A stretch of 64,000 nucleotides of DNA from Parcubacteria group bacterium (lineage in GTDB: Bacteria; Patescibacteriota; Patescibacteriia; Buchananbacterales; UBA6539), in contig NYZP01000019.1 of assembly GCA_002687175.1 (NCBI GenBank), forward strand, positions 14,629 to 78,628. The letters are read 5' to 3'. Both the position numbers and the translations under genes were made by a program. Positions 27,589 through 54,724 of the stretch are shown one piece after another; position 1 is the stretch's first letter; each line of letters begins with the position of its first letter. The notes below the pieces were generated by a model, which made no database searches, was not told the DNA's origin, and saw nothing but the letters and a program-made list of their open reading frames with translations.

Positions 27589-28503
27589 ATGGAACGCTTT
27601 AATCTACCTTACATAGTAGTCTTTATTCCTGCTTATAACGAGGAGGAATCAATTGAGGAAGTAATTCGAAAAATTAAAGAGACGTATCAAGGACCTAATC
27701 AAAAAGATTTTGTTCTTGATATTATAGTCGTAAATGATGGATCAAAAGACAACACTTTTGAAGCTGCTCAAAAAGCCGAAGTTAGAAAAATAGTGAATCA
27801 TCCTTATAATAAAGGTCTGGGAGCGGCTACCCGAACAGGTTTACAAACAGCTTTGGAGATGAACGCTGATGTTGCGGTTAAGATTGACGCTGATATGCAA
27901 AATGATCCCAAGGATATTGAAACGGTTGTTCGTCCAATTCTTGATGACCAAGCTGACAGCGTTTTTGGATCTCGTTTAATGGGCGGATTAGAATATAAGA
28001 TGCCATTTTATCGAGATATGGGAAATAAATTTTTTGCTTGGCTGACCTCTAAGATAACTGGGCTGAAAGTCACCGATGCGACAACCGGCTTGATGGCTTT
28101 TCATAAAAGGTATTTAAAAATTTTTACAATTATCAAAGATTATAATGAAACTCAGCAATTGATTATTGATTCTTGGGGTAAACACATGCGAGTAATGGAA
28201 GTTTCAACAGTATTTCACGAAAGAAAAACTGGTCAATCATTTATTAAAATTGGTTTCAAATATCCGGGGATTGTTATCCCAACAATGATCCGGATGTATA
28301 TGCACTTTAAACCATTACGATTTTTTCTGACAACTGGTTTAATTTTTATAATCGTGGGTATTCTCGGCGGACTTCATATCATATTCAATGGTGGTGAAAC
28401 AACATTGTTTGGTGACGCCGCCGTGACTATTACCACTATACTAGGCTTTCAAATCATATTCTTTGGTTTATTAGCTGACCAGGTAAGTTACCGCAGAAAA
28501 TAA
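27589..28503 (+). CDS. GT2 polyprenyl-phosphate sugar synthase (ArnC/GtrB-like) with C-terminal TM helices
   Basis: VVFIPAYNEEESIEEVI...VNDGSKDNT. Two C-terminal TM helices. It is adjacent to the aminotransferase, as in arnB-arnC. Confidence 0.75.
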   Translation: MERFNLPYIVVFIPAYNEEESIEEVIRKIKETYQGPNQKDFVLDIIVVNDGSKDNTFEAAQKAEVRKIVNHPYNKGLGAATRTGLQTALEMNADVAVKIDADMQNDPKDIETVVRPILDDQADSVFGSRLMGGLEYKMPFYRDMGNKFFAWLTSKITGLKVTDATTGLMAFHKRYLKIFTIIKDYNETQQLIIDSWGKHMRVMEVSTVFHERKTGQSFIKIGFKYPGIVIPTMIRMYMHFKPLRFFLTTGLIFIIVGILGGLHIIFNGGETTLFGDAAVTITTILGFQIIFFGLLADQVSYRRK

Positions 28504-28561
28504 AACAATTAAAGAAATTTACAAGTTAAAAAATTATTAGTAATTAAATATCAATTAATAT

Positions 28562-30016
28562 ATGAAGATACTACTCATTAACCCCCCTACTTTCAATATG
28601 ATTACTTCGGCTTTGCCCGGTGTCATTGAAGAGGAACGAGGAGTCAATCCCCCCTTAGGCATCCTGTATATTGCAGGTTACTTAAGAAAATTTACTGACC
28701 ATGAAGTAGAGATGTTTGATACTCAATTGGAAAAGTCTAGCTATGAGGAAATTGAAGAACGTATCAAGAAAAGTAATCCTGATGCCGTTGGTATTACGGC
28801 AATGACATTTACCATTATTGATGTGATAAAAATTTGTAAAATTATTAAAAACTTTAACCCTAACATTAAAGTTATTTTAGGCGGACCGCACATCAATATT
28901 TATCCAAATGAAACAATGGAAATTCCCGAGGTAGACTTTCTGGTAATGGGTGAAGGAGAAATGGTGATAAAAGATTTGGTCAACAATATTAATGATCAAG
29001 AAAAACTACATCAAATTACTGGATTAGTTTTTAGAGATGATGGACAAATTGTTAAAACCGGTGTCAGAGAACTACTTCAAGATTTAGATATCTTGCCTTT
29101 TCCGGCCAGAGAAATAACGCAATACAAAAAATACTCTTCTGTTTTGGCAACGCATAAAATTGTAACAACAATGTTTACTTCTAGGGGTTGCCCTTACAAA
29201 TGTTCATTTTGTGATCGACCGCATCTAGGCAAAAGATTTAGAGCTCGAACAGCAGCAAATGTCGTAGACGAAATGGAATTATGCCAAAACATGGGTATTG
29301 GTGAAATATTAATTTACGATGATACCTTCACTATTGATCGACGTCGTGTTGTTGCTGTATGTGAAGAGTACTTAAAAAGAGGTCTAAAGATAAATTGGGA
29401 CATCAGGGCCAGGGTTAATACTGTTGACACCGAACTACTAAAATTAATGAAAAAATCTGGCTGCACCAGAATTCATTACGGTGTTGAAGCAGGAACCGAG
29501 AAGATACTTAAGGTATTGAAGAAAGGAATTAACCGTAAAATGGTTAAAAAGGCCTTTAAATTAACTAATAAAGAAGGTATAGAAAGCTTAGCCTACTTTA
29601 TGATTGGTTCTCCAACCGAGACAGTAGATGATATTAAAGAAACAATAAAATTTGCTAAAAAAATAAAACCAAATTTTGTACACGCTACAGTTTTAATGCC
29701 TTTTCCGGCCACTGATATTTACTACCAAGGTCTAGAAAGTAAGGTAATAAAATCAGACCATTGGCGAGAATTTGCCAAAAATCCTACAGCCGATTTTAAA
29801 CCACATCTTTGGACTGAAAACTTTGATGAGAAAGAACTGTTTCAATTGCTGCGGTTATTTTATCATAAATTTTATCTGAGACCATCGTTCATCGTTAAAA
29901 AATTAGCTGAATTAAAGTCTTGGGATGAATTTGTTAGAAAATTTAAAGCTGGGATGAGCATCATAAAAATGAAAAAAAATCCGCACAAGTTAATCTCCGC
30001 TAGAGTTGCCGAATAA
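28562..30016 (+). CDS. B12-binding domain radical SAM enzyme (class B radical SAM methyltransferase-like), paralog 1
   Basis: N-terminal cobalamin-binding Rossmann region (ILLINPP...VGITAMTF), then the radical SAM cluster motif CPYKCSFC (CxxxCxxC). 484 aa. Confidence 0.75.
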   Translation: MKILLINPPTFNMITSALPGVIEEERGVNPPLGILYIAGYLRKFTDHEVEMFDTQLEKSSYEEIEERIKKSNPDAVGITAMTFTIIDVIKICKIIKNFNPNIKVILGGPHINIYPNETMEIPEVDFLVMGEGEMVIKDLVNNINDQEKLHQITGLVFRDDGQIVKTGVRELLQDLDILPFPAREITQYKKYSSVLATHKIVTTMFTSRGCPYKCSFCDRPHLGKRFRARTAANVVDEMELCQNMGIGEILIYDDTFTIDRRRVVAVCEEYLKRGLKINWDIRARVNTVDTELLKLMKKSGCTRIHYGVEAGTEKILKVLKKGINRKMVKKAFKLTNKEGIESLAYFMIGSPTETVDDIKETIKFAKKIKPNFVHATVLMPFPATDIYYQGLESKVIKSDHWREFAKNPTADFKPHLWTENFDEKELFQLLRLFYHKFYLRPSFIVKKLAELKSWDEFVRKFKAGMSIIKMKKNPHKLISARVAE

Positions 30017-30087
30017 TATATATCCAAAATTAAAAAACCAAAGTATTTATGGTTTTTTAATTTGACCAAAATTGAATTATCATAAAT

Positions 30088-31077
30088 ATGTCAATAGCAT
30101 CTTATTTACTCTCAAAATCAAACGTTAGAGAATTGGATAAGCTTATCGCCAAAACACCAATTCTAAAACATCCCAGAAAATTATTAGTTCAGGGGTTGAT
30201 TGATTATGAGTTTCCGGTTCATATTTTTATGGAGCTGACTAGTGCTTGTAATTATTTATGCTTAATGTGTCCACGAACCAAGCCGGGTACCTTAGTAGGT
30301 CATATGGAAATCGACGTGATAAAAAAAATTGTTGATGAAGCAAGTAAGTATGGTGGTAAGTCATTCTCACTCCACGGTTTTGGTGAACCATTCATGGCAA
30401 AAAATTTCGACTTTGCCGTCAAATATATTAAAGAGAAACATCCCCAAAATAATATTTTACTTACTAGTAACGGTTCAAGAATAACTGACGATAAAGCCAA
30501 AAAAATAGTTGAAGCCGGCGTTGATAATATATATATAAGTTTCACCAGTCCTGATAGAGAAACTGCTATTAAAAAAGTTGGCGTTGATCAACTCGAGATA
30601 TCTGAAAAAAATATTAATAACCTGATTAGAATTAAAAAAGAACTTAATTCAAAAACTCCAAAAATTTATGTTCGGTTAATTGTTGATGCCGAGACAAAAC
30701 CGCAGACAGAAGAATTTGTCAATCGTTGGAAAGACAAAGACGTAACAGTAGAGCTCAGAGAAGTACATAACTACGGTGGTGAAATTGAACAACGCATAGA
30801 AAAAAAGCTGCCTACGAGGCACCCTTGCTATCATCTATGGTTTGCTCCAATGATTCACTGGAATGGAGATTTTTCTATCTGCTGCGATGACTGGCCACGA
30901 AAAGCAGTTCTTGGCAGTATTAAAAATCAAAGCATCAATGAGATCTGGAACAGTCGAAAGATAAAAGAATTTAGAAAACTTCATCTCTCAGGACAATACG
31001 ATAAAATGTCGCTCTGTAAAAACTGTAATGTTTGGTCTGAGTACAACGACTTCTTCTTTAAACATCAAAAAAAGTAA
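30088..31077 (+). CDS. radical SAM protein with C-terminal SPASM/twitch-like Cys-rich domain
   Basis: CNYLCLMC (CxxxCxxC) at residues ~54-61. C-terminal cysteines CYHLW...CCDDWP...CKNCNVW suggest an auxiliary Fe-S cluster. Confidence 0.65.
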   Translation: MSIASYLLSKSNVRELDKLIAKTPILKHPRKLLVQGLIDYEFPVHIFMELTSACNYLCLMCPRTKPGTLVGHMEIDVIKKIVDEASKYGGKSFSLHGFGEPFMAKNFDFAVKYIKEKHPQNNILLTSNGSRITDDKAKKIVEAGVDNIYISFTSPDRETAIKKVGVDQLEISEKNINNLIRIKKELNSKTPKIYVRLIVDAETKPQTEEFVNRWKDKDVTVELREVHNYGGEIEQRIEKKLPTRHPCYHLWFAPMIHWNGDFSICCDDWPRKAVLGSIKNQSINEIWNSRKIKEFRKLHLSGQYDKMSLCKNCNVWSEYNDFFFKHQKK

Positions 31078-31090
31078 TACTTTTTAATAA

Positions 31091-32071
31091 CTATTTTCTA
31101 AGATCTTTTAGCTTGATTGGTTTGAGTATCCAGGCCACTAGGCCAAAAATAGTTGTAGCCACGGTGATTAGTAGTAATAACATTGAAAAAATTATTGCCT
31201 TCTCGGCAGCAACGTCTTTCAGACCAAATAATAAAATAACCAAAGCATCGCGAGTACCAATTCCATATATGCTAACTGGTACTAGACTGATCAGCATAGA
31301 TAGAGCCAAAACTATAGCAGTATAGATAAATCCAAGGTAGTCTAAATTCATTGCCTTAACTATCCACCACGACATTACAAACGACAATAACCATGAAAAA
31401 AAAGTTAGAAAAGAAATTACTAAGTAGTCATTCAACTTAAATTGTTTAAATCGTTCAACAAAATCTGAGAAAACTAAATTAGCATTTTTACGATATTTTT
31501 TGGGAGTTAACCCAAAAAATATTTTTTTTAAAACACTTTTATAAATTCCTTTCTTGTATACAATAAAAATTAATAAAATCAACACTATTAATATTACTAA
31601 AGAAAAAAATATTACACTACTGCTATCAAGATAGGACGTAAAATAAAAAAAACTTGCTAGGCAAACGATAAGCAGAAATAACAAGTCAGATAATCGGTCT
31701 AAAAAAACTGAGACAATACCAGGAACTAACGGGTGGCCATCGGATTTTAAATAGTATACTTTACTAAACTCCCCTATTCTAGCCGGCGTAAACGAACCGA
31801 TATAAATTGAAGATAAGTAAGCCAAAAATGAATCTTTAAAACTGTAACTAATACCCATCGTACTAAGTATCATCTTCCAACGAAAAGATCTAATCATAAT
31901 AATTGGTAGTCCTAAAAAAATGGCTCCTACTATATAGATGATGTCAATTTGATTCAATAAACTAAGATAATAGCCAAAGTCAATCTTCGATAAGATAAAA
32001 ATAAAAAGACCAATACCAAATAAGTATATCAGCTTATCTACCCTACTAAAAAACCAACGTCCTAAAGCCAT
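31091..32071 (-). CDS. flippase-like (UPF0104/lysylphosphatidylglycerol-synthase TM-region-like) membrane protein
   Basis: 326 aa with ~8 predicted TM helices. The N-terminal block GAIFLGLPIIMIRSFRWKMIL is typical of the UPF0104 family. Confidence 0.5.
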   Translation of the reverse strand: MALGRWFFSRVDKLIYLFGIGLFIFILSKIDFGYYLSLLNQIDIIYIVGAIFLGLPIIMIRSFRWKMILSTMGISYSFKDSFLAYLSSIYIGSFTPARIGEFSKVYYLKSDGHPLVPGIVSVFLDRLSDLLFLLIVCLASFFYFTSYLDSSSVIFFSLVILIVLILLIFIVYKKGIYKSVLKKIFFGLTPKKYRKNANLVFSDFVERFKQFKLNDYLVISFLTFFSWLLSFVMSWWIVKAMNLDYLGFIYTAIVLALSMLISLVPVSIYGIGTRDALVILLFGLKDVAAEKAIIFSMLLLLITVATTIFGLVAWILKPIKLKDLRK

Positions 32072-32078
32072 AAAATAA

Positions 32079-33791
32079 TTACTTTACTAGATTTAGGAAC
32101 CACATTTCATTAGTATAAACATCGGTTGGTTTCACTAACTCATCCTCTGCCGGAGCAGAAGAAATATTAATTACAGAAGTTTGTTCAAGAATTTTTACTG
32201 ATTGATCTTCATGAAAACCAACAATATATTTAACCCCAAATTTATCAAAAGCTGACTGCAACTCTCCTTCTGCTATTAGTCGATCAGTCGTTTCGGGAGA
32301 AAAGTAAACAAAAGATTTTTCTGCCAAGTAATTGAATAAGACATGCCCTTCTCTAAATGATGTAGCAATTATTTCATCGTCAGCTACCTCTGATTGTTTA
32401 ATTTGTTCACCAATATAAATTGCAGCTAAATTATCTTTGTCGTCGTAAGCTCGTCCCCAAAAAACATGGCTGGCAATCACTAAATTATAAACTACCAACA
32501 AAACAACAATAATATAAATTGGCCAAAGGAATCTTTTTAATTTAAAATAATCTTTTAATAATAAAAATATAGAACTTAATCCCAACGATACCAAAAGAGC
32601 AATCACCCAACCAAAATCTATTAACCTATTTCTGGTAGATAAGCCCAGATAAGATAACAAAAATAAAACACCAATCATCCAAAAAATAAAAAATTGAAAA
32701 AGTTCTTTACTAATATACTTCAATTTATACAAACCCAATAGCATTAACAGGGTTATTAAGGGACCGCCAATTGCTTCGATCGCCAAAAAACGTGACATGT
32801 GCTTCAAAAATATATTACTACCCACTAACAAGCGCTCACCAAAACCAATAGACCGTTCACCAATATTAGCTCCTACTTTTAAACGACCTAAAACAGTTGC
32901 AAAATCAGAATCAGTATTGGTGATTTGTTGCTCTAACTCTTGATCAGCATCACCTTTCGCAAAATGGTAAGTATAAGGATCAGCGTATAAATGTCCGTAA
33001 AGATGGTAGGCAGGCGATTTTAATTCCTCGGAAGCACCAGTTTTAAAAAGATATAAATTAGAATTTTCTTGACTAAGAAAACTTGGTGCCCAAAAAACTA
33101 ACAGCATTAATGCTAAAGGAATAAAAACTGATAAAATTTCCAGCTTCTTTTTATGGAACACTAAATAAATAAAAAATAGTGGCAAAAACATCATGAAAGT
33201 CTCTCTAGACATTACGGTCAAAGACAGAAAAAATCCTGCCAAAACCAAATAAATTATTTTTAATTTCTGATCTCGCCCCCAAAAATAAAATAAACTGAAA
33301 AGTGATAAATAAAAAAGAGCAAACTCGTAAGTAGCTAGAAACTGGGAGTGTTGCCATTGAAAAGGGAAAAAAATATAAATAAAAGGAAAAACCAGGGCTA
33401 TTGATGAACCAAATAAATAGAAAATAAGCACTGTAAACAATACTAGCGCTAGGGCATGCAATATAAAGCTGGTTATTAAAAGTTGATTAATACTTAGCTG
33501 CCCAATGGCTTTAAATAAGTAACCATACGAATAGTAAGTAAATTTGTTACTGACTGTGCTAGTATTAGCCCTTTCTTCGACTAAACTTGGGGCAACAAAA
33601 ATATTAAGGTTATCTTCCATACCAAATACATCCGATTGACTATAATTTCTAGCTATTAAAATACCATAACCCATTGGCTGTGATGAATAACCTTTTAACA
33701 AAACAGGCGAATACCAAACAGTAATCGCCAATAAAAAAATAAAAACTAAAAATATACTAAACAATAAACGAGTCTTCAGCCGTCTAGACAT
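32079..33791 (-). CDS. large polytopic membrane protein, putative GT-C-type glycosyltransferase
   Basis: 570 aa with many predicted TM helices, large loops and a C-terminal soluble domain. No diagnostic motif. Confidence 0.4.
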   Translation of the reverse strand: MSRRLKTRLLFSIFLVFIFLLAITVWYSPVLLKGYSSQPMGYGILIARNYSQSDVFGMEDNLNIFVAPSLVEERANTSTVSNKFTYYSYGYLFKAIGQLSINQLLITSFILHALALVLFTVLIFYLFGSSIALVFPFIYIFFPFQWQHSQFLATYEFALFYLSLFSLFYFWGRDQKLKIIYLVLAGFFLSLTVMSRETFMMFLPLFFIYLVFHKKKLEILSVFIPLALMLLVFWAPSFLSQENSNLYLFKTGASEELKSPAYHLYGHLYADPYTYHFAKGDADQELEQQITNTDSDFATVLGRLKVGANIGERSIGFGERLLVGSNIFLKHMSRFLAIEAIGGPLITLLMLLGLYKLKYISKELFQFFIFWMIGVLFLLSYLGLSTRNRLIDFGWVIALLVSLGLSSIFLLLKDYFKLKRFLWPIYIIVVLLVVYNLVIASHVFWGRAYDDKDNLAAIYIGEQIKQSEVADDEIIATSFREGHVLFNYLAEKSFVYFSPETTDRLIAEGELQSAFDKFGVKYIVGFHEDQSVKILEQTSVINISSAPAEDELVKPTDVYTNEMWFLNLVK

Positions 33792-33855
33792 AAATAAATT
33801 TTGAGATTTATCCTACTGTTGTTATTTTAAAATGACAATAAAATAACAATATGTA

Positions 33856-35286: not shown

Positions 35287-35306
35287 ATATGTAAATTTGA
35301 TATTAA

Positions 35307-35984: not shown

Positions 35985-35990
35985 AAATTT

Positions 35991-39274: not shown

Positions 39275-39277
39275 AGG

Positions 39278-42593: not shown

Positions 42594-42598
42594 ATTTT

Positions 42599-46774: not shown

Positions 46775-46778
46775 ATTG

Positions 46779-49396: not shown

Positions 49397-50444
49397 TGAC
49401 TCCTAATTCTTGTGAGAAGTCTTTATCTTTTAAAATTTTAATAATTGCTTGAGCAGTTTGGTCAATGTTCTCTTGTTCAACTAATAAACCGCTATAACCA
49501 TCTCTGATGGCATCTTCGGCACCGCAACCTTTAGTACCAATAACTGGTTTACCATAGGCGCTAGCCTCTAAATAAACTAAACCAAAACCCTCAAACTTAT
49601 TTTTACTGACAACAATTGGCGTTAACAAAAAAAGATTACATTTTTGATAGAAATCTTTTAGCTCATTATCAGATAAATTTTGTAAAAATATAACAGTTTG
49701 TTCTAATCCATGTTTAGCGGTTAATTCCTCAAGTTGATTAAAATAGTCAGCGTCTGGTTTACTGGCAACAATAAAATATTTAACGTCGGGAATTTCTTTT
49801 TTAACCTTGGCCATAGCGGCAATAGTAACATGATAACCTTTACGATGTTTCAAGTTACCGACACTTAGGACAATCGGAAAATCTTCTTGACCATGACGAT
49901 CAACTAACTGGCCTTGACTGGTAAATTCATCCAAGTTAATTCCATTACTAATGACTTCTAAATTATTGAGTTCTATCCTTTTGGTAATTTGTTGCTTAGT
50001 AAAATTACTAACACATATAACTTTGTAAGCCACTTTAAAGGATTTTATTAACAGACCACGAGAACGTTTATTGTCCAACGGGGCAACACCGTAAGTACCG
50101 TGAACGGTAATAAATCTTTTTTTAAATTTAGCTGGAATGAAACTAAAAAAAGTACAGTAAGGATAATCAGAAAAAAAATGAACTAAATCTGCTTTTAAAA
50201 AATAAGGTAAAATTTTAAGTGTTTGCCGTAGATAAATCAACGGCTTTGTTAATTTTTCTATTGCCGGTAAATCGTAAATTTTCAACTTCAAACCGTCTAA
50301 ATCATGTTCGTCAGACCTTGGTCTTTCCGAAGTAAAAACAGTGATTTGAAAATCACTACTTAACTGCTTCAGCATTTCCACAGAGTATCTCCCCTGCCCT
50401 TCAGTCACCGATAACGACCTGGTTAAAACTAACAATTGTTTCAT
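49326..50444 (-). CDS. GT4 family glycosyltransferase
   Basis: EX7E block GFGLVYLEASAYGKPVIGTKGCGAEDAI. Confidence 0.8.
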   Translation of the reverse strand: MKQLLVLTRSLSVTEGQGRYSVEMLKQLSSDFQITVFTSERPRSDEHDLDGLKLKIYDLPAIEKLTKPLIYLRQTLKILPYFLKADLVHFFSDYPYCTFFSFIPAKFKKRFITVHGTYGVAPLDNKRSRGLLIKSFKVAYKVICVSNFTKQQITKRIELNNLEVISNGINLDEFTSQGQLVDRHGQEDFPIVLSVGNLKHRKGYHVTIAAMAKVKKEIPDVKYFIVASKPDADYFNQLEELTAKHGLEQTVIFLQNLSDNELKDFYQKCNLFLLTPIVVSKNKFEGFGLVYLEASAYGKPVIGTKGCGAEDAIRDGYSGLLVEQENIDQTAQAIIKILKDKDFSQELGVNGKKWVRQFDWSEVIEKYKKVYG

Positions 50445-51814
50445 AATGCTGAGCGGACAAATTTTACTAGCCGAGTATAAAATTCCGGCTTTAGGAAATA
50501 AAAATTACCAAAATTGTATTTATATTTATAGTGCCAACGGTAAATTCTGGCTAACCACGGTGGCTGAGCTACGCCAACACGGCCGGCATATTTTTCTAAA
50601 TTTTCCCAGTCAAAATCTTTACCTTCTTGTTTTTTTAACATCTGATACATTTCCGTTCCAAAATAAGGGATTGGTAAGTTAGGAGCACACATCGTTTTTA
50701 TTTTATTATCAGCTAAAAATTTTTCGGTTTCAGCAATCGTCTGCCTGGTTTCACCAGGAAGATTCAAAATTGAATAGGCACCAATATTAATGTTGTGCTT
50801 TTTACAAATATCAATTGAATTTTGGGTCTCAGACATCTTAACCTGTTTTTTGGCCATGTCTAAAACTTTTTGAGAGCCACTTTCAAAACCAATGTTAATT
50901 CGGACACAGCCAGCTTTTTTCATTTTAGCTACTCGTTCATCTGTTAAATCAGAAACCCTGGCATTGGCGCCCCATTTAATATCTAAACCGGCTTCAATAA
51001 TTAAATCGCAGATCTTTTCTACTCGTGAATGAATTATCAAAAACTCCCAGTCCTGAAAATATATTCCCTTGATCCCATAATTTTCTGCCAAGTACTTCAT
51101 CTCTGCTACTACACTTTCCGGACTGCGAACAATGTAAAGTTTATCCATCATCTTTTTTAAACAATAAGTACAGTTAAATGGACAACCACGGGAAGTGATC
51201 ATCAAAGAAAATGGTTTAGGAATATCAGGGAAAGAATAGCTGTACTTGTCCATTGGTAATAAATCAAAAGCCGGGTAAGGCATCTCATCTAAACTTTTAT
51301 TCCGTCTGGCATCAGGGTTATTAGTGATCTGGCCGTCTTTAACATAAGAGATGCCGGCGACGTTTGAAGTATCTCCACCAGCAACCAAGGTATTTACTAA
51401 ATCTACGGTGGTTAGTTCTGGTTCGCCACGAATGACATAATCAACTTTGGCTCTTTCTAAAATCCATTCCGGTTTCACCGTACCATGTGAACCAAGTAAT
51501 ATAGTATGCTTGATTTCTACACTATTGATAGTATTTACCAAATTATCAATCAATAACTTAATGTGGGCATGCGATGGTACCTCCCAACGGTCCATGGGAG
51601 TTGAGGTTAAAATAAGCATGTCCGGTTTAAACTTTCTAATTTTTTCAATAGTACTGGCAAAATCTAACTTAAGAACGTTAGCATCCAAGAGTCTAATTTC
51701 ATGCTTATCACGAAGCAAACTGGCAATGTAAGCCAAGCCTAGCGGCTGACGTCGACGTGACAGCGTTTTAAGTTTTCCCGTAAAAAGAAATGGATTAAGA
51801 ATAAATATCTTCAT
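50441..51814 (-). CDS. B12-binding domain radical SAM enzyme, paralog 5
   Basis: B12-binding N-terminal region, then CPFNCTYC. 457 aa. Confidence 0.75.
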   Translation of the reverse strand: MKIFILNPFLFTGKLKTLSRRRQPLGLAYIASLLRDKHEIRLLDANVLKLDFASTIEKIRKFKPDMLILTSTPMDRWEVPSHAHIKLLIDNLVNTINSVEIKHTILLGSHGTVKPEWILERAKVDYVIRGEPELTTVDLVNTLVAGGDTSNVAGISYVKDGQITNNPDARRNKSLDEMPYPAFDLLPMDKYSYSFPDIPKPFSLMITSRGCPFNCTYCLKKMMDKLYIVRSPESVVAEMKYLAENYGIKGIYFQDWEFLIIHSRVEKICDLIIEAGLDIKWGANARVSDLTDERVAKMKKAGCVRINIGFESGSQKVLDMAKKQVKMSETQNSIDICKKHNINIGAYSILNLPGETRQTIAETEKFLADNKIKTMCAPNLPIPYFGTEMYQMLKKQEGKDFDWENLEKYAGRVGVAQPPWLARIYRWHYKYKYNFGNFYFLKPEFYTRLVKFVRSAL

Positions 51815-51828
51815 ATATCTAATATAAA

Positions 51829-52413
51829 TTATTTGATCATATAAGCATTATACCCCGACGTTTGGTTTTTAGAAGGTAGTAAATTATCTAAAATTCTGGC
51901 TATTGGCCGACAAAACCGACGGATTGGACTAACCGGGAATAGATTAACAATGGTCTCAAAAATACCTCTAACTTTAAAAATTTCAATTTTAGAAAAATCC
52001 CTAAACATATACTTAACACCATCGGCAGTAAAGCGATAAAAATCGCCATAATAGCCCTTTTCCGCATGATAAGGGTATAAAAATGGTACTGATACCAAAC
52101 ACTTGCCACCGGGCTTTAAAACACGGTGCATTTCAGCCACTGCTTTAAAAGGATCATCAATATGTTCCAGAACCGCCCGACAAATTAAAGCATCAAGGCT
52201 AGCATCAGCTAAAGGAATATTCTTGATATCCCCGATAATATCTGGTTTATAGTCAGGTACATTATCTAAAGTTTTGTAATCAGCTTGACTAAACAAGGCC
52301 TCATATTCCTTCATTCCTTTTTGAAATCTGTTGCCACCTCCAACATCCAAAACAGATTTGGAAGTTTTGGCAATTTCAGATATTTTTTCATCCCAAAATA
52401 TTTTCCACTTCAT
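51829..52413 (-). CDS. class I SAM-dependent methyltransferase
   Basis: Motif I VLDVGGGNRF and the LDALICRAVLEH block. 194 aa. Confidence 0.65.
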   Translation of the reverse strand: MKWKIFWDEKISEIAKTSKSVLDVGGGNRFQKGMKEYEALFSQADYKTLDNVPDYKPDIIGDIKNIPLADASLDALICRAVLEHIDDPFKAVAEMHRVLKPGGKCLVSVPFLYPYHAEKGYYGDFYRFTADGVKYMFRDFSKIEIFKVRGIFETIVNLFPVSPIRRFCRPIARILDNLLPSKNQTSGYNAYMIK

Positions 52414-52461
52414 ATAATTATGACGTTATTTATCACTATTAGTTTCAGAAGGTATACTCGT

Positions 52462-53616
52462 TTAGGAAATAAAATTTAACACCTTTTTAGCTCTTTTATC
52501 CCAGGTGTAATCCTGAACCGTAGTATAGGCATTCTGGGAAACCTTCTCTGCTAGCTCTTCGTTGGATAAAATATTTTTAATACCATCTGCTAGGGCTGAG
52601 GAATCATCTGGTGCAACTAGCACTGCATTGTCTGAATTTAAAACTTCTTTGATCGACGGAATGTCCGAAGCAACAATCGGTTTGTTAGCGGCCATATATT
52701 CAAACATCTTCATTGGTGAAGTGTAATGTTCAGAAATTTTATTCTTGCCTGAGTTAGGTAATACTAGGATATCGGCGGCTTTAAGGTAAACTGGAATATC
52801 CTTTGGCGGTTTATAACCAACGATTAAAATATTTCTTAAATTTTTTTCTGAAATAAATTTATTTAATTTTTTTTGATCATGTTCCATGCCGCCAACTATA
52901 ACTATTAAATCATTATCGGCTAAATAACTGGATGATTCAACCAATCGGTTTACTCCCTTCCAACCAAATAAATGCCCCGTGTATAAAATAATATTTTTAT
53001 CAAGCGGTAAACCTAATTGGTCGCGACACTCTTTTCTAGTTTTGGAAATTACAAATTGTTTTAGGTCTACAGCATCGGCCGATACCACAATTTTATCTTG
53101 ACTTACCCCCAATTGATTCTCTAGTAAACCCTGAAGACCTTTAGTGATAACAACTATTTTTTTTACTCTGCGAAAAAGAAATTTGAATAAAATCATTTTG
53201 TATAATTTTTTGCTTTCAGTAAAAGTATGAAGTTCAAAAACCAAATTTTTTTTAAAAAAACTTAATAAGAACAAAGAAAATTCATCTCGAGAATAAATAA
53301 TATCTGCTTTACTAAACAGTAAGCTAAAAAATGCTGAGATGGCAAACGAAGTATTTTGCAATGGTACGCTTAAGCCTTTAATTGAGAGACCAAGGTCAAC
53401 TAAATCTATTAGCGGTAATTTTTTAATTTTGAATCTTTTTTTAAGACCGTAATAATTAAAAGGATCTTCATGCTCCAGTTGATTATTAGCCCGCTTAGCC
53501 ACCACCAATTCTACGTCAACTCCCTGACCTTGAAAAGCTTCTACCATCTTCATTATCTGAAGACCGTGAGCTTTTTCAGTTGGAATTCTAGCATTTTCTA
53601 AATAGATCATTTTCAT
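52462..53616 (-). CDS. GT4 family glycosyltransferase
   Basis: GT-B layout with a C-terminal EX7E-type block EHYTSPMKMFEYMAANKPIVASDIPSIKEV. Confidence 0.75.
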   Translation of the reverse strand: MKMIYLENARIPTEKAHGLQIMKMVEAFQGQGVDVELVVAKRANNQLEHEDPFNYYGLKKRFKIKKLPLIDLVDLGLSIKGLSVPLQNTSFAISAFFSLLFSKADIIYSRDEFSLFLLSFFKKNLVFELHTFTESKKLYKMILFKFLFRRVKKIVVITKGLQGLLENQLGVSQDKIVVSADAVDLKQFVISKTRKECRDQLGLPLDKNIILYTGHLFGWKGVNRLVESSSYLADNDLIVIVGGMEHDQKKLNKFISEKNLRNILIVGYKPPKDIPVYLKAADILVLPNSGKNKISEHYTSPMKMFEYMAANKPIVASDIPSIKEVLNSDNAVLVAPDDSSALADGIKNILSNEELAEKVSQNAYTTVQDYTWDKRAKKVLNFIS

Positions 53617-53623
53617 AATAAAA

Positions 53624-54724
53624 CTAGTTTCCTGGAATCTGTTTTAAACTATTAGCTACGTACTCTTGCTCTTCTTTAGTAATTCCCAAAAATAGTGGCA
53701 AAGACAGTACTTGTTCAGAAACTTTATCGGTTATTGGACAGGGGTCACCCGATTCTTTATAAAAGGGCTGATCATAAACCGGTACCGGATAATGGACTGC
53801 TGTTTGGATTCCTAGCTCTAACAAGTCTTGTCTAACTTTATCTCTATCCCCTTCTAAGATTCTAATTATATATAAATGATAAATACCAGAGCCCTTATCA
53901 AGCTCTTTAATTAATTTAATTTTATTATTAGATATTAGATCATTATAAATTTTAGCAGACTTAATTCTAGCGTCATTATTATCTTCTAGAAATGGCAACT
54001 TTAAATTTAAACAAATGGCTTGGATTGGATCAAGGCGCATGTTATAACCTAACTGCTCATGTTGATTATTTTTGTTCTTACCTAAATTCCTAATAACATT
54101 AATTTTATTTTTTATTTCTTCATTGTTAGTGACTACTGCTCCCCCATCACCAAAAGCCCCTAAATTTTTAGTCGGATAAAAACTGAAGGTTGCAACATCA
54201 CCCCAATTACCAACGTATTTATCTTTAAACTTTGTCAGATGGGCTTGAGCACAATCTTCAATAACATATAAATTATGCTTTTTAGCAATCTCTACAACTG
54301 TTTCAATGTCACAAGATTGACCATATTGATGTACTGGTAATATTGCTTTGGTTTTGTCAGTGATAATATCCTCAAGTTTCGTAACATCAAGTGTTAAGCT
54401 GTCTTCATTAATATCGCAAAATCGTGGCACAGCTCCCACTCTTAGAATTGCGGTAACCGTGGCATTATAAGCATTCCCCTGAGTTATTACTTCATCACCA
54501 GCTTTAATATCTAGGGCTCGTAAAGCTAAATACAAAGCATCAGCACCGCTACTGGTGCCGATACAAAATTTAGTACCAACGGCTTTGGCCCAGCTATGTT
54601 CAAACTTTTCTACCTCTTCAGTTAAAATAAAACGACCCTGATCTAAAAATTGATCAACTGACTTTAAATAGTCTTCTTTGATTTGTTGAGTATTTTTAGT
54701 TAAATCGTTAAATGGTACATTCAT
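53624..54724 (-). CDS. DegT/DnrJ/EryC1/StrS-family PLP-dependent sugar aminotransferase (second copy)
   Basis: GTKFCIGTSSGADALYLALRAL, and SFYPTKNLGAFGDGGAV with the PLP-binding Lys. Confidence 0.8.
   Translation of the reverse strand: MNVPFNDLTKNTQQIKEDYLKSVDQFLDQGRFILTEEVEKFEHSWAKAVGTKFCIGTSSGADALYLALRALDIKAGDEVITQGNAYNATVTAILRVGAVPRFCDINEDSLTLDVTKLEDIITDKTKAILPVHQYGQSCDIETVVEIAKKHNLYVIEDCAQAHLTKFKDKYVGNWGDVATFSFYPTKNLGAFGDGGAVVTNNEEIKNKINVIRNLGKNKNNQHEQLGYNMRLDPIQAICLNLKLPFLEDNNDARIKSAKIYNDLISNNKIKLIKELDKGSGIYHLYIIRILEGDRDKVRQDLLELGIQTAVHYPVPVYDQPFYKESGDPCPITDKVSEQVLSLPLFLGITKEEQEYVANSLKQIPGN

What the first reader, a model, noticed from the sequence alone, without database searches (positions are those of the whole stretch)
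27589..54724. Modular glycan locus with five paralogous B12-binding radical SAM enzymes, each next to a glycosyltransferase
Five colinear paralogs (28562-30016, 33856-35286, 41157-42593, 45209-46774, 50441-51814) carry an N-terminal cobalamin-binding Rossmann region plus a CxxxCxxC radical SAM motif (CPYKCSFC, CPFNCNFC, CPARCTFC, CPFNCVFC, CPFNCTYC). Each sits directly beside a GT4 or GT2 gene. Three of them are also flanked by class I SAM methyltransferases, at 35307, 51829 and, one gene further away, 56669. This gives a repeated unit of glycosyltransferase + B12 radical SAM (+ methyltransferase). It suggests that each sugar added to a polyprenyl-linked glycan is individually tailored by radical chemistry. 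Class B radical SAM enzymes such as GenK/Fom3 C-methylate unactivated carbons. So many of them in a Wzx/Wzy/PGT-type surface polysaccharide locus is, to my knowledge, not a described system. It is especially odd if the host is a small-genome organism unlikely to make cobalamin. What the enzymes actually do (C-methylation, epimerization, deoxygenation, ring contraction) cannot be inferred from sequence alone.
Basis: partly seen in the sequence, partly recalled or inferred. Interest (0 to 1): 0.85.

Follow-up and report, generated by a model that had tools for sequence, protein, structure and literature searches.

The report
Radical-SAM-rich glycan locus in Parcubacteria
A tiny marine candidate-phyla-radiation bacterium carries a surface-sugar gene island with five vitamin-B12-type radical enzymes (plus two other radical enzymes); related gene sets occur unstudied in many uncultured microbes, so this is probably a common, undescribed way of chemically modifying lipid-carried sugars.

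Summary
The five ORFs exist as stated. Each has a B12-binding-type Rossmann domain, a radical SAM core and the quoted CxxxCxxC motif. They are old paralogs (25-32% identical), each with its own orthologs elsewhere. None reaches the cutoff of any named family (BchE and HpnJ score best, at under half the cutoff). Two SPASM radical SAM genes were missed.

Details that fail:
- R2 is not next to a glycosyltransferase (GT).
- The methyltransferase at 56669 lies six genes from the nearest B12-type enzyme and is a TylCIII-type sugar C-methyltransferase.
- GT adjacency inside the window alone is not significant (P=0.13).

Cross-genome synteny is real. R1 orthologs (54-61% identity) follow a GT2 in 42 of 68 metagenomic loci. 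They recur with a deacetylase, an LPG_synthase_TM flippase-like protein, a methyltransferase and a PMT_2-like GT-C. These are the same protein types as HpnI/K/J/L. The R5 and R4 blocks recur in the same order in other Patescibacteria; one locus has six B12-type enzymes.

Best reading: cytoplasmic radical tailoring of polyprenyl-linked sugars within a Wzx/Wzy locus. The chemistry is unresolved. The locus is not unique, but this kind appears uncharacterised. Host label: Parcubacteria MAG.

The parts
21440..23938 (-). Wzy_C (O-antigen polymerase/ligase-like) membrane domain fused to TPR repeats
   Evidence: Pfam Wzy_C 65.8 bits plus TPR families. About 15 hydrophobic segments. Orthologs sit at the same edge of the cassette in L107, L109 and L118.
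24088..25482 (+). Initiating polyprenyl-phosphate glycosylphosphotransferase (PGT)
   Evidence: Pfam Bac_transf 227.6 bits. NCBIfam TIGR03025 395.5 bits, above the 295.55 cutoff.
25484..27585 (+). NDP-sugar SDR epimerase/dehydratase (25484-26464) and DegT-type aminotransferase (26467-27585)
   Evidence: Pfam Epimerase and DegT_DnrJ_EryC1. Best NCBIfam hits are PseC/ArnB-like, below cutoffs. 55% identical orthologs lie upstream of GT2 and B12-rSAM genes in Omnitrophica locus L019.
27589..28503 (+). GT2_a: GtrB/DPM1/ArnC-like polyprenyl-monophosphate sugar synthase candidate, partner of R1
   Evidence: Pfam Glycos_transf_2. The best NCBIfam hits are all polyprenyl-P sugar synthases (AglJ 107.8, PpgS 87.3, Dol-P-hexose transferase, PgfS, ArnC), all below cutoff. 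C-terminal TM hairpin at about residues 247/273. A GT2 directly precedes R1 orthologs in 42 of 68 loci.
28562..30016 (+). R1: B12-domain radical SAM enzyme, member of a large conserved ~470-aa family
   Evidence: Pfam PF02310 and PF04055. Motif CPYKCSFC. More than 5000 homologs, with orthologs 56-66% identical in several phyla. AF2 model pLDDT 90.4. Fold nearest AprD4, OxsB, TsrM, MgmA, CysS and TokK. Cbl motifs G77xT79, G107G108 and G130E131 are present.
30088..31077 (+). S1: SPASM/twitch radical SAM enzyme, BtrN-like (not in the original finding)
   Evidence: Pfam Radical_SAM and SPASM. The best solved relative is BtrN, E 4.9e-20. 46-53% orthologs lie beside R1 orthologs in L096, L107, L143, L165, L098 and L137.
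31091..32071 (-). LPG_synthase_TM (flippase-like, AglD/HpnL-type) membrane protein
   Evidence: Pfam PF03706 147.6 bits. NCBIfam TIGR00374 flippase-like domain 93.8 bits, above the 43.2 cutoff. 8 hydrophobic segments. Present near R1 orthologs in 31 of 80 loci.
32079..33791 (-). MEM570: divergent PMT_2-like GT-C glycosyltransferase candidate
   Evidence: The window protein alone has no Pfam hit at E<=0.001, and a weak PMT_2 hit at E 0.0095. 24 of 61 family members match PMT_2, best E 1.5e-12. 3 members are fused to a GT4 domain. 8 hydrophobic segments. Orthologs occur near R1 orthologs in 22 of 80 loci.
33856..35286 (-). R2: B12-domain radical SAM enzyme
   Evidence: Pfam. Motif CPFNCNFC. A 51% ortholog in L019 lies next to an R1-like gene and an MT_a homolog.
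35307..35984 (-). MT_a: class I SAM methyltransferase
   Evidence: Pfam Methyltransf_23/11/25. A class I MT is the immediate downstream neighbour of R1 orthologs in 21 of 65 loci.
35991..37262 (-). GT4_a glycosyltransferase
   Evidence: Pfam Glycos_transf_1 138.5 bits. 41-52% orthologs lie next to MEM570 orthologs in L096, L107, L118 and L154.
37247..39274 (-). MEM675: 12-TM membrane protein, weak PMT_2 (ArnT-like GT-C) candidate
   Evidence: Pfam PMT_2 E 5.9e-4, 20.5 bits, below the 26.1 cutoff. The L090 counterpart is marked PMT_2 (weak). Orthologs in L005 and L091.
39278..40851 (-). Formyltransferase (39278-40057, ArnA-N-like) and polysaccharide deacetylase (40054-40851, ArnD/NodB-type)
   Evidence: Pfam Formyl_trans_N and Polysacc_deac_1. 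The best NCBIfam hit of the formyltransferase is ArnA, 120.3 bits, far below the 777 cutoff. A deacetylase sits next to a B12-rSAM in L091 and directly upstream of R1 orthologs in 10 of 68 loci.
41157..42593 (-). R3: B12-domain radical SAM enzyme, best model HpnJ (sub-threshold)
   Evidence: Pfam. Motif CPARCTFC. HpnJ 241.5 bits against a 577.6 cutoff. No relative above 39% identity among the sequences fetched.
42599..43468 (-). GT2_b: polyprenyl-monophosphate sugar synthase candidate, partner of R3
   Evidence: Pfam Glycos_transf_2 106.8 bits. Best NCBIfam hits are AglJ, PpgS, Dol-P-hexose transferase and PgfS, below cutoffs. C-terminal TM hairpin.
43465..45208 (-). S2 SPASM radical SAM (43465-44433) and RmlD-like reductase (44417-45208)
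   Evidence: Pfam. 74% and 52% orthologs lie in the same order after the R4 ortholog in L090.
45209..46774 (-). R4: B12-domain radical SAM enzyme from a rare family
   Evidence: Pfam. Motif CPFNCVFC. Only about 18 relatives at 37% identity or more. Cbl loop G-I-S-F-N matches the OxsB type.
46779..50444 (-). GT4_b (46779-47999), Wzx flippase (47996-49396), GT4_c (49326-50444)
   Evidence: Pfam. Orthologs lie in the same order in L090, L091 and L092. The GT4_c start overlaps the R5 stop by 4 nt.
50441..51814 (-). R5: B12-domain radical SAM enzyme; named orthologs are mostly Patescibacteria
   Evidence: Pfam. Motif CPFNCTYC. About 117 relatives at 40% identity or more, mostly Patescibacteria where named. 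It is followed by a GT4_c ortholog in all three other loci, and lies between GT4_d and GT4_c orthologs in L090 and L091.
51829..54724 (-). MT_b class I methyltransferase (51829-52413), GT4_d (52462-53616), DegT aminotransferase (53624-54724)
   Evidence: Pfam. L090 orthologs are 70% (MT_b) and 59% (GT4_d) identical and in the same order.
54812..59724 (.). NDP-deoxy/amino-sugar precursor genes: RmlC-like cupin (+), RmlD-like, DUF218, TylCIII-type C-methyltransferase (56669-57841), two SDRs
   Evidence: Pfam dTDP_sugar_isom, RmlD_sub_bind, Methyltransf_14/13 and Epimerase.

Best explanation
The window is a cell-surface glycan island of a marine Parcubacteria (CPR) MAG. It combines a Wzx/Wzy/PGT repeat-unit pathway with at least two 'three-component' side-branch systems. 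Seven soluble, cytoplasmic radical SAM enzymes are built into it as sugar-tailoring steps: five with a B12-type Rossmann domain and two of the SPASM type.

Mechanism proposed (inferred, not shown):
(1) GT2_a and GT2_b load a hexose or N-acetyl/N-formyl-aminosugar onto polyprenyl monophosphate at the inner face of the membrane.
(2) R1 and R3 then change that lipid-held sugar by hydrogen-atom abstraction. A deacetylase or deformylase, the BtrN-like dehydrogenase S1 with a DegT aminotransferase, and class I methyltransferases may also take part. The chemistry would be either cobalamin-mediated C-methylation or an HpnJ/OxsB-like rearrangement.
(3) An LPG_synthase_TM flippase-like protein moves the modified donor outwards.
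(4) PMT_2-like GT-C enzymes (MEM570, MEM675) attach it to the polymer or another acceptor.

R5, R4 and R2 lie between GT4 genes, a Wzx gene and methyltransferases. They most likely modify the growing polyprenyl-diphosphate-linked repeat unit or its NDP-sugar precursors between glycosyl transfers.

The R1 module uses the same four protein types as the hopanoid cyclitol-ether pathway HpnI (GT2), HpnK (deacetylase), HpnJ (B12-type rSAM) and HpnL (LPG_synthase_TM), but seemingly on a polyprenyl carrier.

Shown: domain content, conserved synteny and phyletic spread. Inferred: the substrate (a lipid-linked sugar), the order of steps, the chemistry and cobalamin use.
For: Domains and motifs of the five enzymes. 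No predicted TM segments in the rSAMs, so they are cytoplasmic.

R1 family synteny in 80 metagenomic loci at 54-61% identity:
- GT2 directly upstream in 42 of 68 loci; a deacetylase directly upstream, with a GT2 further upstream in the loci printed in full, in 10 of 68.
- Class I MT directly downstream in 21 of 65; LPG_synthase_TM directly downstream in 8 of 65.
- Within 8 kb: GT2 69/80, MT 42/80, LPG_synthase_TM 31/80, MEM570 22/80, PGT 21/80.
- One such locus was verified with Pfam.
The same module occurs in a Patescibacteria and a Brocadiaceae genome and in Saccharibacteria, PVC, FCPU426, Scalindua and Iainarchaeum MAGs.

GT2_a and GT2_b have their best matches only to polyprenyl-P sugar synthases and carry a C-terminal TM hairpin. 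The MEM570 family is PMT_2-like: 24 of 61 members match, best E 1.5e-12, and 3 are fused to a GT4.

The block GT4_d-MT_b-R5-GT4_c-Wzx-GT4_b-R4-RmlD-like-S2 keeps its order at 36-74% identity in L090; parts of it recur in L091 and L092.

Across 80 species-level loci of the wider subfamily, the most frequent immediate neighbours are GT2 (9 of 98), GT4 (5), MT (5), NDP-sugar SDR (4), LPG_synthase_TM (4) and PMT_2 (3).

Cbl-contact motifs defined from OxsB, TsrM and TokK are kept in R1 and R4 and mostly kept in R2, R3 and R5. S1 resembles BtrN.

Precedents from the literature: HpnI/K/J (PMC12583986, PMC13459092), HpnL as an AglD/LPG-synthase family member (PMC12324291), auxiliary enzymes acting on lipid-linked donors in three-component systems (PMC11127046), and MoeK5, GenK and Fom3 listed among the Csp3-methyltransferases (PMC12931638), MoeK5 and Fom3 colocalising with HpnJ in the network (PMC9204698).
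Against: - No biochemical or structural-glycan data exist for any member.
- All family assignments beyond the superfamily level are below curated cutoffs.
- GT adjacency within the window is not significant on its own (P=0.126).
- R2 and R3 have no close orthologs among the sequences retrieved, so their synteny is weakly tested.
- The best structural match of R1 is AprD4, which does not bind cobalamin.
- In one genome the R1 ortholog is an orphan with no glycan genes nearby (L008).
- Many multi-copy B12-rSAM arrays elsewhere have no recognisable GT.
- The acceptor of the GT-C enzymes is unknown.
- The MAG label rests on binning.
Confidence: 0.6

Rival explanations
1. All or most of the five are cobalamin-dependent C-methyltransferases (like GenK, GenD1, MoeK5 or Fom3) that add C-methyl branches to sugars of the glycan. 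This is a specific version of the main explanation.
For: Most characterised Cbl-dependent rSAMs are methylases (PMC9204698). Cbl-contact motifs are kept. MoeK5, Fom3 and HpnJ share one sequence-network cluster.
Against: The best profile matches are to the non-methylases BchE and HpnJ. Methylase models (PhpK, HpnR, KedN5, TsrM, MgmA) score lower, though all are sub-threshold. The locus already has a classical TylCIII-type C-methyltransferase and several class I MTs. Sequence cannot separate methylases from non-methylases.
Confidence: 0.4
2. R1, and perhaps R3, is an HpnJ/Cds/OxsB-like non-methylating enzyme that contracts or rearranges the ring of a lipid-held (amino)sugar. The result would be a carbocyclic (cyclitol) or otherwise rearranged unit, which S1 and DegT process further.
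For: The conserved partners GT2, deacetylase, B12-rSAM and LPG_synthase_TM mirror HpnI/K/J/L (PMC12583986, PMC12324291). HpnJ is the top or second model for R1, R3 and R5. S1 resembles BtrN, which oxidises an aminocyclitol in concert with a DegT-type aminotransferase (the BtrS link is from own knowledge). OxsB is a top structural hit.
Against: HpnJ scores are under half the cutoff. HpnJ chemistry has never been reconstituted (PMC13459092). As I recall it, HpnK belongs to a different deacetylase family (YdjC-like), so the parallel there would be analogous rather than homologous. The GT2s are not HpnI-like.
Confidence: 0.25
3. The N-terminal Rossmann domains do not bind cobalamin. The enzymes would be AprD4-like: plain radical SAM dehydratases, epimerases or dehydrogenases acting on sugars. 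This would remove the 'B12 in a CPR bacterium' puzzle.
For: AprD4, a sugar 1,2-diol dehydratase, is the best sequence and fold match in the PDB (E 8.8e-25; TM 0.71/0.75). The 2026 review states that AprD4 and ArsL sit in the B12-rSAM network without binding cobalamin. The R5 PF02310 score is low (44.9 bits) and several R5 orthologs lack a PF02310 hit. No cobalamin genes were seen in the window or in the flanks that were fetched: about 4.4 kb (to a contig end) on one side and about 9.4 kb on the other.
Against: The three Cbl-contact motifs (G-x-S/T-x-X loop, GG on beta-4, GE before alpha-5) sit at the right secondary-structure positions. They are invariant or nearly so in the R1 family. Identity to AprD4 is only 19% and the sequence match covers only residues 166-392, which excludes the Rossmann domain.
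Confidence: 0.25
4. The rSAMs act on lipids rather than sugars. Candidates are the polyprenyl carrier or scavenged membrane lipids (methylation, cyclisation, cross-linking), as with HpnP/R, the ladderane enzyme or archaeal GDGT enzymes.
For: Sub-threshold hits to lipid-modifying B12-rSAM models (ladderane TIGR04072 at 119-160 bits, HpnR). A cyclopropane-fatty-acid synthase gene lies in the window. Many B12-rSAM arrays in other genomes lack GTs.
Against: The tightest and most frequent conserved neighbours are glycan enzymes. R5 is translationally coupled to a GT4. No lipid-synthesis genes lie inside the operons.
Confidence: 0.08
5. The rSAMs mature a peptide or protein (RiPP-like or post-translational C-methylation), and the glycan genes are merely neighbours.
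For: Sub-threshold hits to ApyD and RiPP C-methyltransferase models. One unannotated 72-aa ORF lies in the R3-deacetylase gap.
Against: Genes are packed with 0-70 nt spacers and leave no room for precursor peptide genes beside R1, R2, R4 or R5. The 72-aa ORF gap is absent at the equivalent place in L091. Conserved partners are GTs, flippase-like proteins and GT-Cs.
Confidence: 0.04

Closest known systems
HpnI/HpnK/HpnJ(/HpnL) hopanoid cyclitol-ether pathway
   Same: The protein types recur together: a GT2 that puts a HexNAc on a lipid, a deacetylase, a B12-domain radical SAM enzyme and an LPG_synthase_TM/AglD-family membrane protein (PMC12583986, PMC12324291). HpnJ is among the two best profile matches for R1, R3 and R5.
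   Different: Scores are under half the HpnJ cutoff. The GT2s resemble polyprenyl-P sugar synthases, not HpnI. There are no squalene-hopene cyclase or HpnH genes here, and the host is a CPR bacterium. GT-C transferases, a PGT and Wzx/Wzy are attached, so the product is exported to a glycan rather than staying as a lipid head group.
Three-component extracytoplasmic glycosylation systems (GtrA/B/type-specific Gtr; CsbB-GtcA-YfhO; ArnC-ArnD-ArnE/F-ArnT; PpgS-Rv3779; pentofuranose systems of Kelly et al. 2024)
   Same: A GT2-type polyprenyl-P sugar synthase with C-terminal TM helices, a flippase-type membrane protein and a GT-C transferase. Auxiliary enzymes act on the lipid-linked donor: ArnD deformylase, DprE1/E2 and the ORF13 epimerase (PMC11127046). 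The window also holds ArnA-N-like, ArnB-like and ArnD-like genes.
   Different: No described system of this type contains a radical SAM enzyme; 'radical SAM' does not occur in PMC11127046 or the related papers. The flippase candidate is an LPG_synthase_TM protein rather than a GtrA, SMR or MATE type. The GT-C (MEM570) belongs to a small divergent family of 198 representatives.
Sugar-modifying class B radical SAM enzymes of antibiotic pathways (GenK, GenD1, Fms7, MoeK5, Fom3) and OxsB
   Same: The same two-domain architecture and the same Cbl-contact motifs. Substrates are sugars or sugar-like units; MoeK5 acts in the pathway of the lipid-linked saccharide moenomycin (own knowledge). OxsB, TokK, CysS, TsrM and MgmA are top fold matches.
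   Different: Those are single enzymes in secondary-metabolite clusters of Actinobacteria and the like. Here five distant paralogs sit in a primary cell-envelope locus of an organism with a reduced genome. About 18-19% identity to any solved member.
AprD4 (radical SAM 1,2-diol dehydratase of apramycin biosynthesis)
   Same: It is the best sequence and fold match in the PDB, of similar length, and has a sugar substrate.
   Different: AprD4 does not bind cobalamin (PMC12931638). The window proteins keep the GxS/TxX, GG and GE Cbl-contact motifs. The sequence match covers only the radical SAM half.
BchE (anaerobic Mg-protoporphyrin IX monomethyl ester cyclase)
   Same: It is the top NCBIfam model for R1, R2 and R4. 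It is also the name some pipelines give to homologs.
   Different: Scores are 147-258 bits against a cutoff of 481. There are no chlorophyll genes and the host is not phototrophic. The name on homologs is a similarity artefact.

Membership tests
Class B (cobalamin-domain) radical SAM superfamily | Radical SAM core with a CxxxCxxC cluster motif (PF04055 above gathering score) | tested here: met
   All five score 69.6-101.3 bits against a 29.5 cutoff. The motifs were read in the sequence.
Class B (cobalamin-domain) radical SAM superfamily | N-terminal Rossmann-type B12-binding domain (PF02310 above gathering score) | tested here: met
   44.9-88.5 bits against a 32.1 cutoff for all five. The AF2 model of R1 shows the five-strand Rossmann domain followed by the barrel.
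Class B (cobalamin-domain) radical SAM superfamily | Cbl-contact motifs seen in OxsB, TsrM and TokK: G/A-x-S/T-x-X loop after beta-3, Gly-Gly on beta-4, Gly-Glu before alpha-5 | tested here: met
   R1: GITAM, GG, GE. R2: CLSYT, GG, GE. R3: GITCM, GG, AE. R4: GISFN, GG, GE. R5: ILTST, LG, GE. Positions agree with the model's strands and helices. R3 and R5 each deviate in one motif.
Class B (cobalamin-domain) radical SAM superfamily | Actual binding of and dependence on cobalamin | not testable with these tools
   This needs purified protein. AprD4 and ArsL show that the domain annotation is not sufficient.
HpnJ (TIGR03471) | Score at or above the curated equivalog cutoff (577.6 bits) | tested here: not met
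   R1 229.9, R2 202.7, R3 241.5, R4 108.6, R5 173.2 bits.
HpnJ (TIGR03471) | Genomic association with hopanoid genes (shc, hpnH, hpnI, hpnK) | tested here: not met
   None in the 64-kb window or the flanks fetched. The GT2s do not hit the HpnI model. The rest of the genome was not available.
BchE (TIGR02026) | Score at or above the curated cutoff (481.35 bits) | tested here: not met
   147.1-257.7 bits. There is no photosynthesis gene context.
Other named B12-rSAM equivalogs (PhpK, HpnR, BzaD, ladderane, MgmA, KedN5, TsrM, ApyD, AprD4, ArsL) | Score at or above each curated cutoff | tested here: not met
   All are far below their cutoffs for all five proteins.
Wzx/Wzy-dependent polysaccharide locus | Initiating PGT, Wzx flippase, Wzy-type polymerase/ligase, several GTs and NDP-sugar genes in one cluster | tested here: met
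   PGT TIGR03025 at 395.5 bits, above the 295.55 cutoff. Polysacc_synt 80.5 bits. Wzy_C 65.8 bits. Four GT4 and two GT2 within the interval.
Three-component polyprenyl-P-sugar glycosylation system | GT2 polyprenyl-monophosphate sugar synthase (GtrB/ArnC/DPM1 type) | tested here: inconclusive
   All top NCBIfam hits of GT2_a and GT2_b are of this type, but below cutoffs (101-108 bits against 325 for AglJ). A C-terminal TM hairpin is present.
Three-component polyprenyl-P-sugar glycosylation system | Dedicated flippase | tested here: inconclusive
   The LPG_synthase_TM protein passes the TIGR00374 'flippase-like domain' cutoff and co-occurs with R1 orthologs. This family has not been shown to flip polyprenyl-P sugars.
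Three-component polyprenyl-P-sugar glycosylation system | GT-C fold transferase | tested here: inconclusive
   MEM570: the window protein hits PMT_2 at E 0.0095 only, but 24 of 61 family members hit PMT_2 down to E 1.5e-12. MEM675: PMT_2 at 20.5 bits, under the 26.1 cutoff. The single-sequence AF2 model is unusable (pLDDT 46.5). No PDB sequence hits.
Arn (4-amino-arabinose lipid A modification) pathway | ArnA, ArnB, ArnC, ArnD and ArnT equivalogs | tested here: not met
   ArnA 120 against 777, ArnB 304 against 631, ArnC 40-55 against 529. Only the same enzyme classes are present.

The most novel reading that the evidence does not exclude
A widespread, uncharacterised HpnIJKL-like module (GT2 sugar loader, deacetylase, B12-type radical SAM enzyme, LPG_synthase_TM flippase, GT-C) makes rearranged (for example carbocyclic) or C-branched sugars on polyprenyl phosphate. 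It then exports them onto the cell surface of CPR bacteria, DPANN archaea and many anaerobes. In Patescibacteria several such radical steps are stacked in one locus. Envelope glycan synthesis in these organisms, which cannot make B12, would then depend on cobamides taken from hosts or neighbours.
Probability: 0.25. Interest if true: 0.85.

Novelty: new variant of a known kind. Interest (0 to 1): 0.6.

Why it matters
If the reading is right, radical SAM chemistry is a routine part of cell-surface glycan synthesis in a large share of uncultured life (CPR, DPANN, Omnitrophota, Planctomycetota and others). So far it is known only for antibiotic sugars and for two lipid head groups (hopanoid cyclitol ether, calditol).

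It would predict unusual C-methylated, deoxygenated or carbocyclic sugars on the surfaces that episymbionts use to contact hosts.

It would assign a function to one of the largest unannotated parts of the B12-radical-SAM superfamily.

It would suggest a role for the unexplained HpnL/LPG_synthase_TM proteins as flippases of modified lipid-linked sugars.

It would also point to a cobamide (or iron-sulfur/reductant) dependency in organisms with minimal metabolism.

The GT2-R1 pair is small, strongly conserved and directly testable in E. coli.

Tried and rejected
- Rfam and tRNA scans of the window found nothing.
- PDB sequence searches for MEM570 and MEM675, alone and as 4-sequence profiles, gave no meaningful hit. 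The 61-sequence profile gave none either.
- hhalign of the MEM570 family against the MEM675 family gave 15% probability, which is not significant.
The single-sequence model has pLDDT 46.5 and was not used.
- The afdb50 fold library was unavailable.
- The promoter/terminator scan is uninformative in this AT-rich DNA: 112 sites against 87 expected.
- Ten literature searches for B12/radical SAM together with polysaccharide, glycan, CPR, Patescibacteria, DPANN or GT-C terms found no description of such loci. Only the HpnJ search gave useful precedents.
- Rejected: a recent tandem duplication. The paralogs are 25-32% identical and R1, R2, R4 and R5 have closer orthologs (51-73%) elsewhere; R3's best relative among the sequences fetched is only 39%.
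- Rejected: membership of BchE, HpnJ or any named equivalog.
- Rejected: coproporphyrinogen oxidase, MiaB or Elp3 placement (only weak hits).
- Rejected: uniqueness of the five-paralog arrangement.
- Considered unlikely: RiPP maturation.

Full report
OBSERVATION

The ORF table reproduces the five coordinates exactly. Pfam places a B12-binding domain (PF02310) and a Radical_SAM domain (PF04055) above the gathering score in each protein. The translations contain the quoted CxxxCxxC motifs. I call them R1 (28562-30016, +), R2 (33856-35286, -), R3 (41157-42593, -), R4 (45209-46774, -) and R5 (50441-51814, -). They are homologous but distant, at 25-32% pairwise identity.

R1, R2, R4 and R5 have much closer relatives in other organisms: R1 up to 66%, R5 73%, R4 66% and R2 51%. 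R3 has nothing above 39% among the sequences I retrieved. The locus was therefore assembled from old, separate lineages, not by recent duplication.

Two further radical SAM genes with SPASM domains were not in the finding. They are S1 (30088-31077, +) and S2 (43465-44433, -).

Three details of the finding fail:
- R2 is flanked by a methyltransferase and a membrane protein, not by a GT.
- The 'methyltransferase one gene further away' at 56669 is six genes from R5. It is a Methyltransf_13/14 (TylCIII-type) NDP-sugar C-methyltransferase.
- With 6 GTs among 23 genes, finding at least 4 of 5 rSAMs beside a GT has P = 0.126 under shuffled gene order. The window alone does not prove a repeated unit.

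SOURCE

The exact proteins are on record as hypothetical proteins of 'MAG: Parcubacteria group bacterium', locus tags CMI53_03265 to 03360, on a 91.5-kb contig from Tara Oceans marine metagenomes. The CPR guess is therefore right as far as binning can be trusted.

The whole 64-kb window is glycan machinery. It holds an AftA_N-like protein, a PMT_2 protein, several GT4 and GT2 genes, GtrA, and a Wzy_C-TPR protein next to an S8 peptidase. The flanks fetched beyond the window run into ordinary housekeeping genes. No cobalamin genes were seen.

WHICH FAMILY

Against NCBIfam, the best models are BchE and HpnJ at 108-258 bits, against cutoffs of 481 and 578. Every other named B12-rSAM model is also far below its cutoff. 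HemN, MiaB and RimO hits are marginal.

An AlphaFold model of R1 built on 43 orthologs is confident (pLDDT 90.4). Its nearest solved folds are AprD4 (TM 0.71/0.75), then OxsB, TsrM, MgmA, CysS and TokK, all at about 18-19% identity.

The review by Bridwell-Rabb and colleagues defines three cobalamin-contact elements in solved class B enzymes: a G/A-x-S/T-x-X loop after beta-3, Gly-Gly on beta-4, and Gly-Glu before alpha-5.
- R1 has G77-I-T79-A-M, G107-G108 and G130-E131, at exactly those secondary-structure positions. These residues are invariant or nearly so in its family.
- R4 has the OxsB-type G-I-S-F-N.
- R2, R3 and R5 each deviate at one position.

This favours real cobalamin binding. However, a 2026 review stresses that AprD4 and ArsL sit in the same sequence network without binding cobalamin. 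Cobalamin use remains an inference.

CONTEXT ACROSS GENOMES: THE R1 MODULE

R1 belongs to a very large family of ~470-aa proteins. It has more than 5000 hits, with orthologs 56-66% identical in Patescibacteria, Brocadiaceae, Eisenbacteria and a Deltaproteobacteria-labelled MAG, among the hits a source names.

In a Patescibacteria genome the order is GT2, R1 ortholog, LPG_synthase_TM, class I MT, then a 572-aa membrane protein, GT2, SPASM rSAM, GT2 and Wzx. In a Brocadiaceae genome it is GT2 (overlapping the rSAM start), R1 ortholog..., MT, LPG_synthase_TM and a PA14-PMT_2 protein. An Eisenbacteria copy is an orphan.

In these loci:
- The gene directly upstream on the same strand is a GT2 in 42 of 68 loci, and a deacetylase in 10 of 68 (in the loci printed in full, a GT2 lies further upstream).
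- The gene directly downstream is a class I MT in 21 of 65 and LPG_synthase_TM in 8 of 65.
- Within 8 kb there is a GT2 in 69 of 80, MT in 42, LPG_synthase_TM in 31, another B12-rSAM in 26, a MEM570 ortholog in 22, a PGT in 21 and a deacetylase in 16.

One locus was checked with Pfam: PGT, SPASM rSAM, GT2, nitroreductase, MT, Polysacc_deac_1, R1 ortholog, LPG_synthase_TM, S1 ortholog, MT.

Window bases 21440-37262 are syntenic with such loci (L107, L118): Wzy_C-TPR, PGT, ..., GT2, R1, S1, LPG_synthase_TM, MEM570, GT4_a.

THE PARTNER PROTEINS

GT2_a and GT2_b have best NCBIfam matches only to polyprenyl-monophosphate sugar synthases (AglJ, PpgS, Dol-P-hexose transferase, PgfS, ArnC). All are sub-threshold. 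Both end in a two-helix membrane hairpin, as GtrB-type enzymes do (own knowledge).

MEM570 has no Pfam hit of its own at E<=0.001. An exhaustive search found only 198 representatives in 1.84 billion. Of 61 full-length relatives, 24 match PMT_2 (best E 1.5e-12) and three carry an N-terminal GT4 fusion. I read it as a divergent GT-C transferase. MEM675 is a weaker PMT_2 candidate.

Around R3 sit a GT2 (ArnC/PpgS-like), a Polysacc_deac_1 deacetylase (the ArnD class), a formyltransferase (best hit ArnA, N-terminal part) and MEM675 (the ArnT class). These are the same enzyme classes as the Arn pathway, though none is an equivalog.

THE GT4-LINKED ENZYMES

R5 orthologs are numerous; those carrying a source name are almost all Patescibacteria. 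R4 orthologs are rare.

In a 200-kb Patescibacteria contig (L090) the order is GT4_d, MT_b, R5, GT4_c, [extra B12-rSAM], Wzx, [hypothetical], GT4_b, R4, RmlD-like, S2. This matches the window at 36-74% identity. It continues with three more B12-rSAMs, two MTs, a GT2, an LPG_synthase_TM and a PMT_2-like protein. That makes six B12-type and one SPASM rSAM in 21 kb.

Two further contigs keep R5 followed by a GT4_c ortholog and also hold other B12-type rSAM genes (an R4 ortholog only in L092); one also shows a B12-rSAM directly followed by a deacetylase. In the window R5 and GT4_c overlap by 4 nt.

The arrangement is thus a conserved Patescibacteria operon type, and this window is not the richest example.

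THE WIDER SUBFAMILY

A scan of one genome per species returned at least 600 stretches in very many bacterial and archaeal phyla. Among the 80 loci kept, 26 have two or more B12-rSAM genes within 21 kb and 9 have four or more; the maximum is 8.

The commonest families among 98 immediate non-rSAM neighbours are GT2 (9), GT4 (5), class I MT (5), NDP-sugar SDR (4), LPG_synthase_TM (4), other rSAM (4) and PMT_2 (3). GT2 at 9% is roughly ten times what I would expect for a random gene; that baseline is my own knowledge and was not computed.

Only 5 of the 14 arrays with three or more copies show a GT recognisable by similarity to the window's GTs. Arrays therefore also exist in other, unknown contexts.

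MECHANISM

The rSAMs have no membrane segments. They need SAM and a reductant, so they act in the cytoplasm.

For R1 and R3 the conserved partners form a complete three-component system: lipid-P-sugar synthase, flippase-type protein and GT-C. Such systems are known to include enzymes that alter the lipid-held donor before export, namely ArnD, DprE1/E2 and the ORF13 epimerase (PMC11127046). I therefore place R1 and R3 on the polyprenyl-phosphate-linked sugar.

The four protein types GT2, deacetylase, B12-rSAM and LPG_synthase_TM are those of HpnI/K/J/L. There, HpnJ is proposed to contract glucosamine into a cyclitol.

S1 resembles BtrN (E 4.9e-20), a radical SAM dehydrogenase of an aminocyclitol. 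With the adjacent DegT aminotransferase it could convert a CH-OH to a CH-NH2; the BtrN/BtrS pairing is own knowledge.

Sequence cannot tell whether the B12-type enzymes C-methylate (the majority activity of the class) or rearrange. I give about 0.4 to methylation for most of them and 0.25 to HpnJ-like rearrangement for R1 and R3. Separately, I give 0.25 to the possibility that cobalamin is not used at all.

R5, R4 and R2 most likely act between GT4 steps, on the polyprenyl-diphosphate-linked repeat unit or on NDP-sugar precursors. R4 forms a conserved cassette with an RmlD-like reductase and S2.

NOVELTY AND VERDICT

The enzymes belong to a known superfamily and the locus to a known kind (Wzx/Wzy plus three-component systems). 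The combination is what appears undescribed: several B12-type radical SAM enzymes as conserved parts of cell-surface glycan pathways, and the HpnIJKL-like module on a polyprenyl carrier. I found it in none of the ten full-text searches. A 2026 B12-rSAM review does not contain the words glycan, polysaccharide or sugar at all. Public annotations are 'hypothetical protein', 'radical SAM protein' or spurious BchE/YgiQ names.

I rate it a new variant of a known kind, with interest 0.6. The underlying phenomenon is real, widespread and experimentally tractable.

Noticed in passing
window 30088-31077 (+) and 43465-44433 (-): Two SPASM-domain radical SAM genes lie inside the finding's interval but were not reported. 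S1 is BtrN-like (PDB 4m7t, E 4.9e-20) and recurs beside R1 orthologs at 46-53% identity. S2 has a 74% ortholog at the same position in L090.
   Followed up: partly
window 40936-41154 (-): A 72-aa hydrophilic ORF on the operon strand fills most of the only long gap (305 nt) in the minus-strand operon, between R3 and the deacetylase. At the equivalent junction in L091 there is no gap. Function unknown.
   Followed up: partly
window 32079-33791 (-); proteins P0347, P0359, P0432: The MEM570 family is tiny (198 representatives in 1.84 billion). Three members of about 900-980 aa carry an N-terminal GT4 domain fused to the PMT_2-like membrane domain. A cytoplasmic GT-B fused to a GT-C is unusual.
   Followed up: partly
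L064 (1-11324), L030 (1-16749), L025, L044, L048: These are tandem arrays of 5 to about 9 B12-domain radical SAM paralogs in single loci of unrelated MAGs (unclassified bacteria, Bathyarchaeota, Myxococcales, Bacteroidales). Most have no glycosyltransferase recognisable by similarity to the window's GTs. What these arrays do is unknown.
   Followed up: no
L043 (Nitrospira MAG, 4938-21284): This glycan locus has a PGT, GT4 and GT2 genes, one B12-domain rSAM and about five SPASM-type rSAM genes. It is a SPASM-rich counterpart of the window's locus.
   Followed up: no
window 19173-21428 (-) next to 21440-23938 (-): An S8 subtilase with FG-GAP repeats lies directly downstream of the Wzy_C-TPR gene at the edge of the glycan island. 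It may be a surface or secreted protease linked to the envelope.
   Followed up: no
window 13385-15162 (+): A peroxiredoxin (AhpC/TSA) and a cyclopropane-fatty-acyl-phospholipid synthase (CMAS, 298 bits) sit in a CPR genome, a group generally thought not to make its own lipids (own knowledge). This suggests remodelling of scavenged lipids.
   Followed up: no
window 9452-11100: This stretch has higher G+C (0.39 against about 0.33). It holds only short ORFs with GTG/TTG starts and no Pfam hits (9859-10239, 10351-10899). It may be non-coding, degraded or foreign DNA. Rfam found nothing.
   Followed up: partly
window 748-2439, 3193-4764, 4828-6924: Three more large polytopic membrane proteins: AftA_N-like (58.7 bits), PMT_2 (41.5 bits), and a 698-aa protein with about 18 hydrophobic segments and no Pfam hit. 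Together with MEM570 and MEM675, the window holds at least four or five GT-C-type candidates.
   Followed up: no
window 47996-49396 and 49326-50444 (-); 55311-56027 (-): The Wzx ORF as listed overlaps the end of GT4_c by 71 nt, so its true start is probably a downstream ATG. The RmlD-like protein at 55311 is short (238 aa) and matches only profile positions 1-149 of 287, so it may be truncated.
   Followed up: no
L107 5763-6425 (+): A nitroreductase-family gene is embedded between the GT2 and MT of an R1 module. It could be a redox partner or a further tailoring enzyme. It is absent from the window.
   Followed up: no
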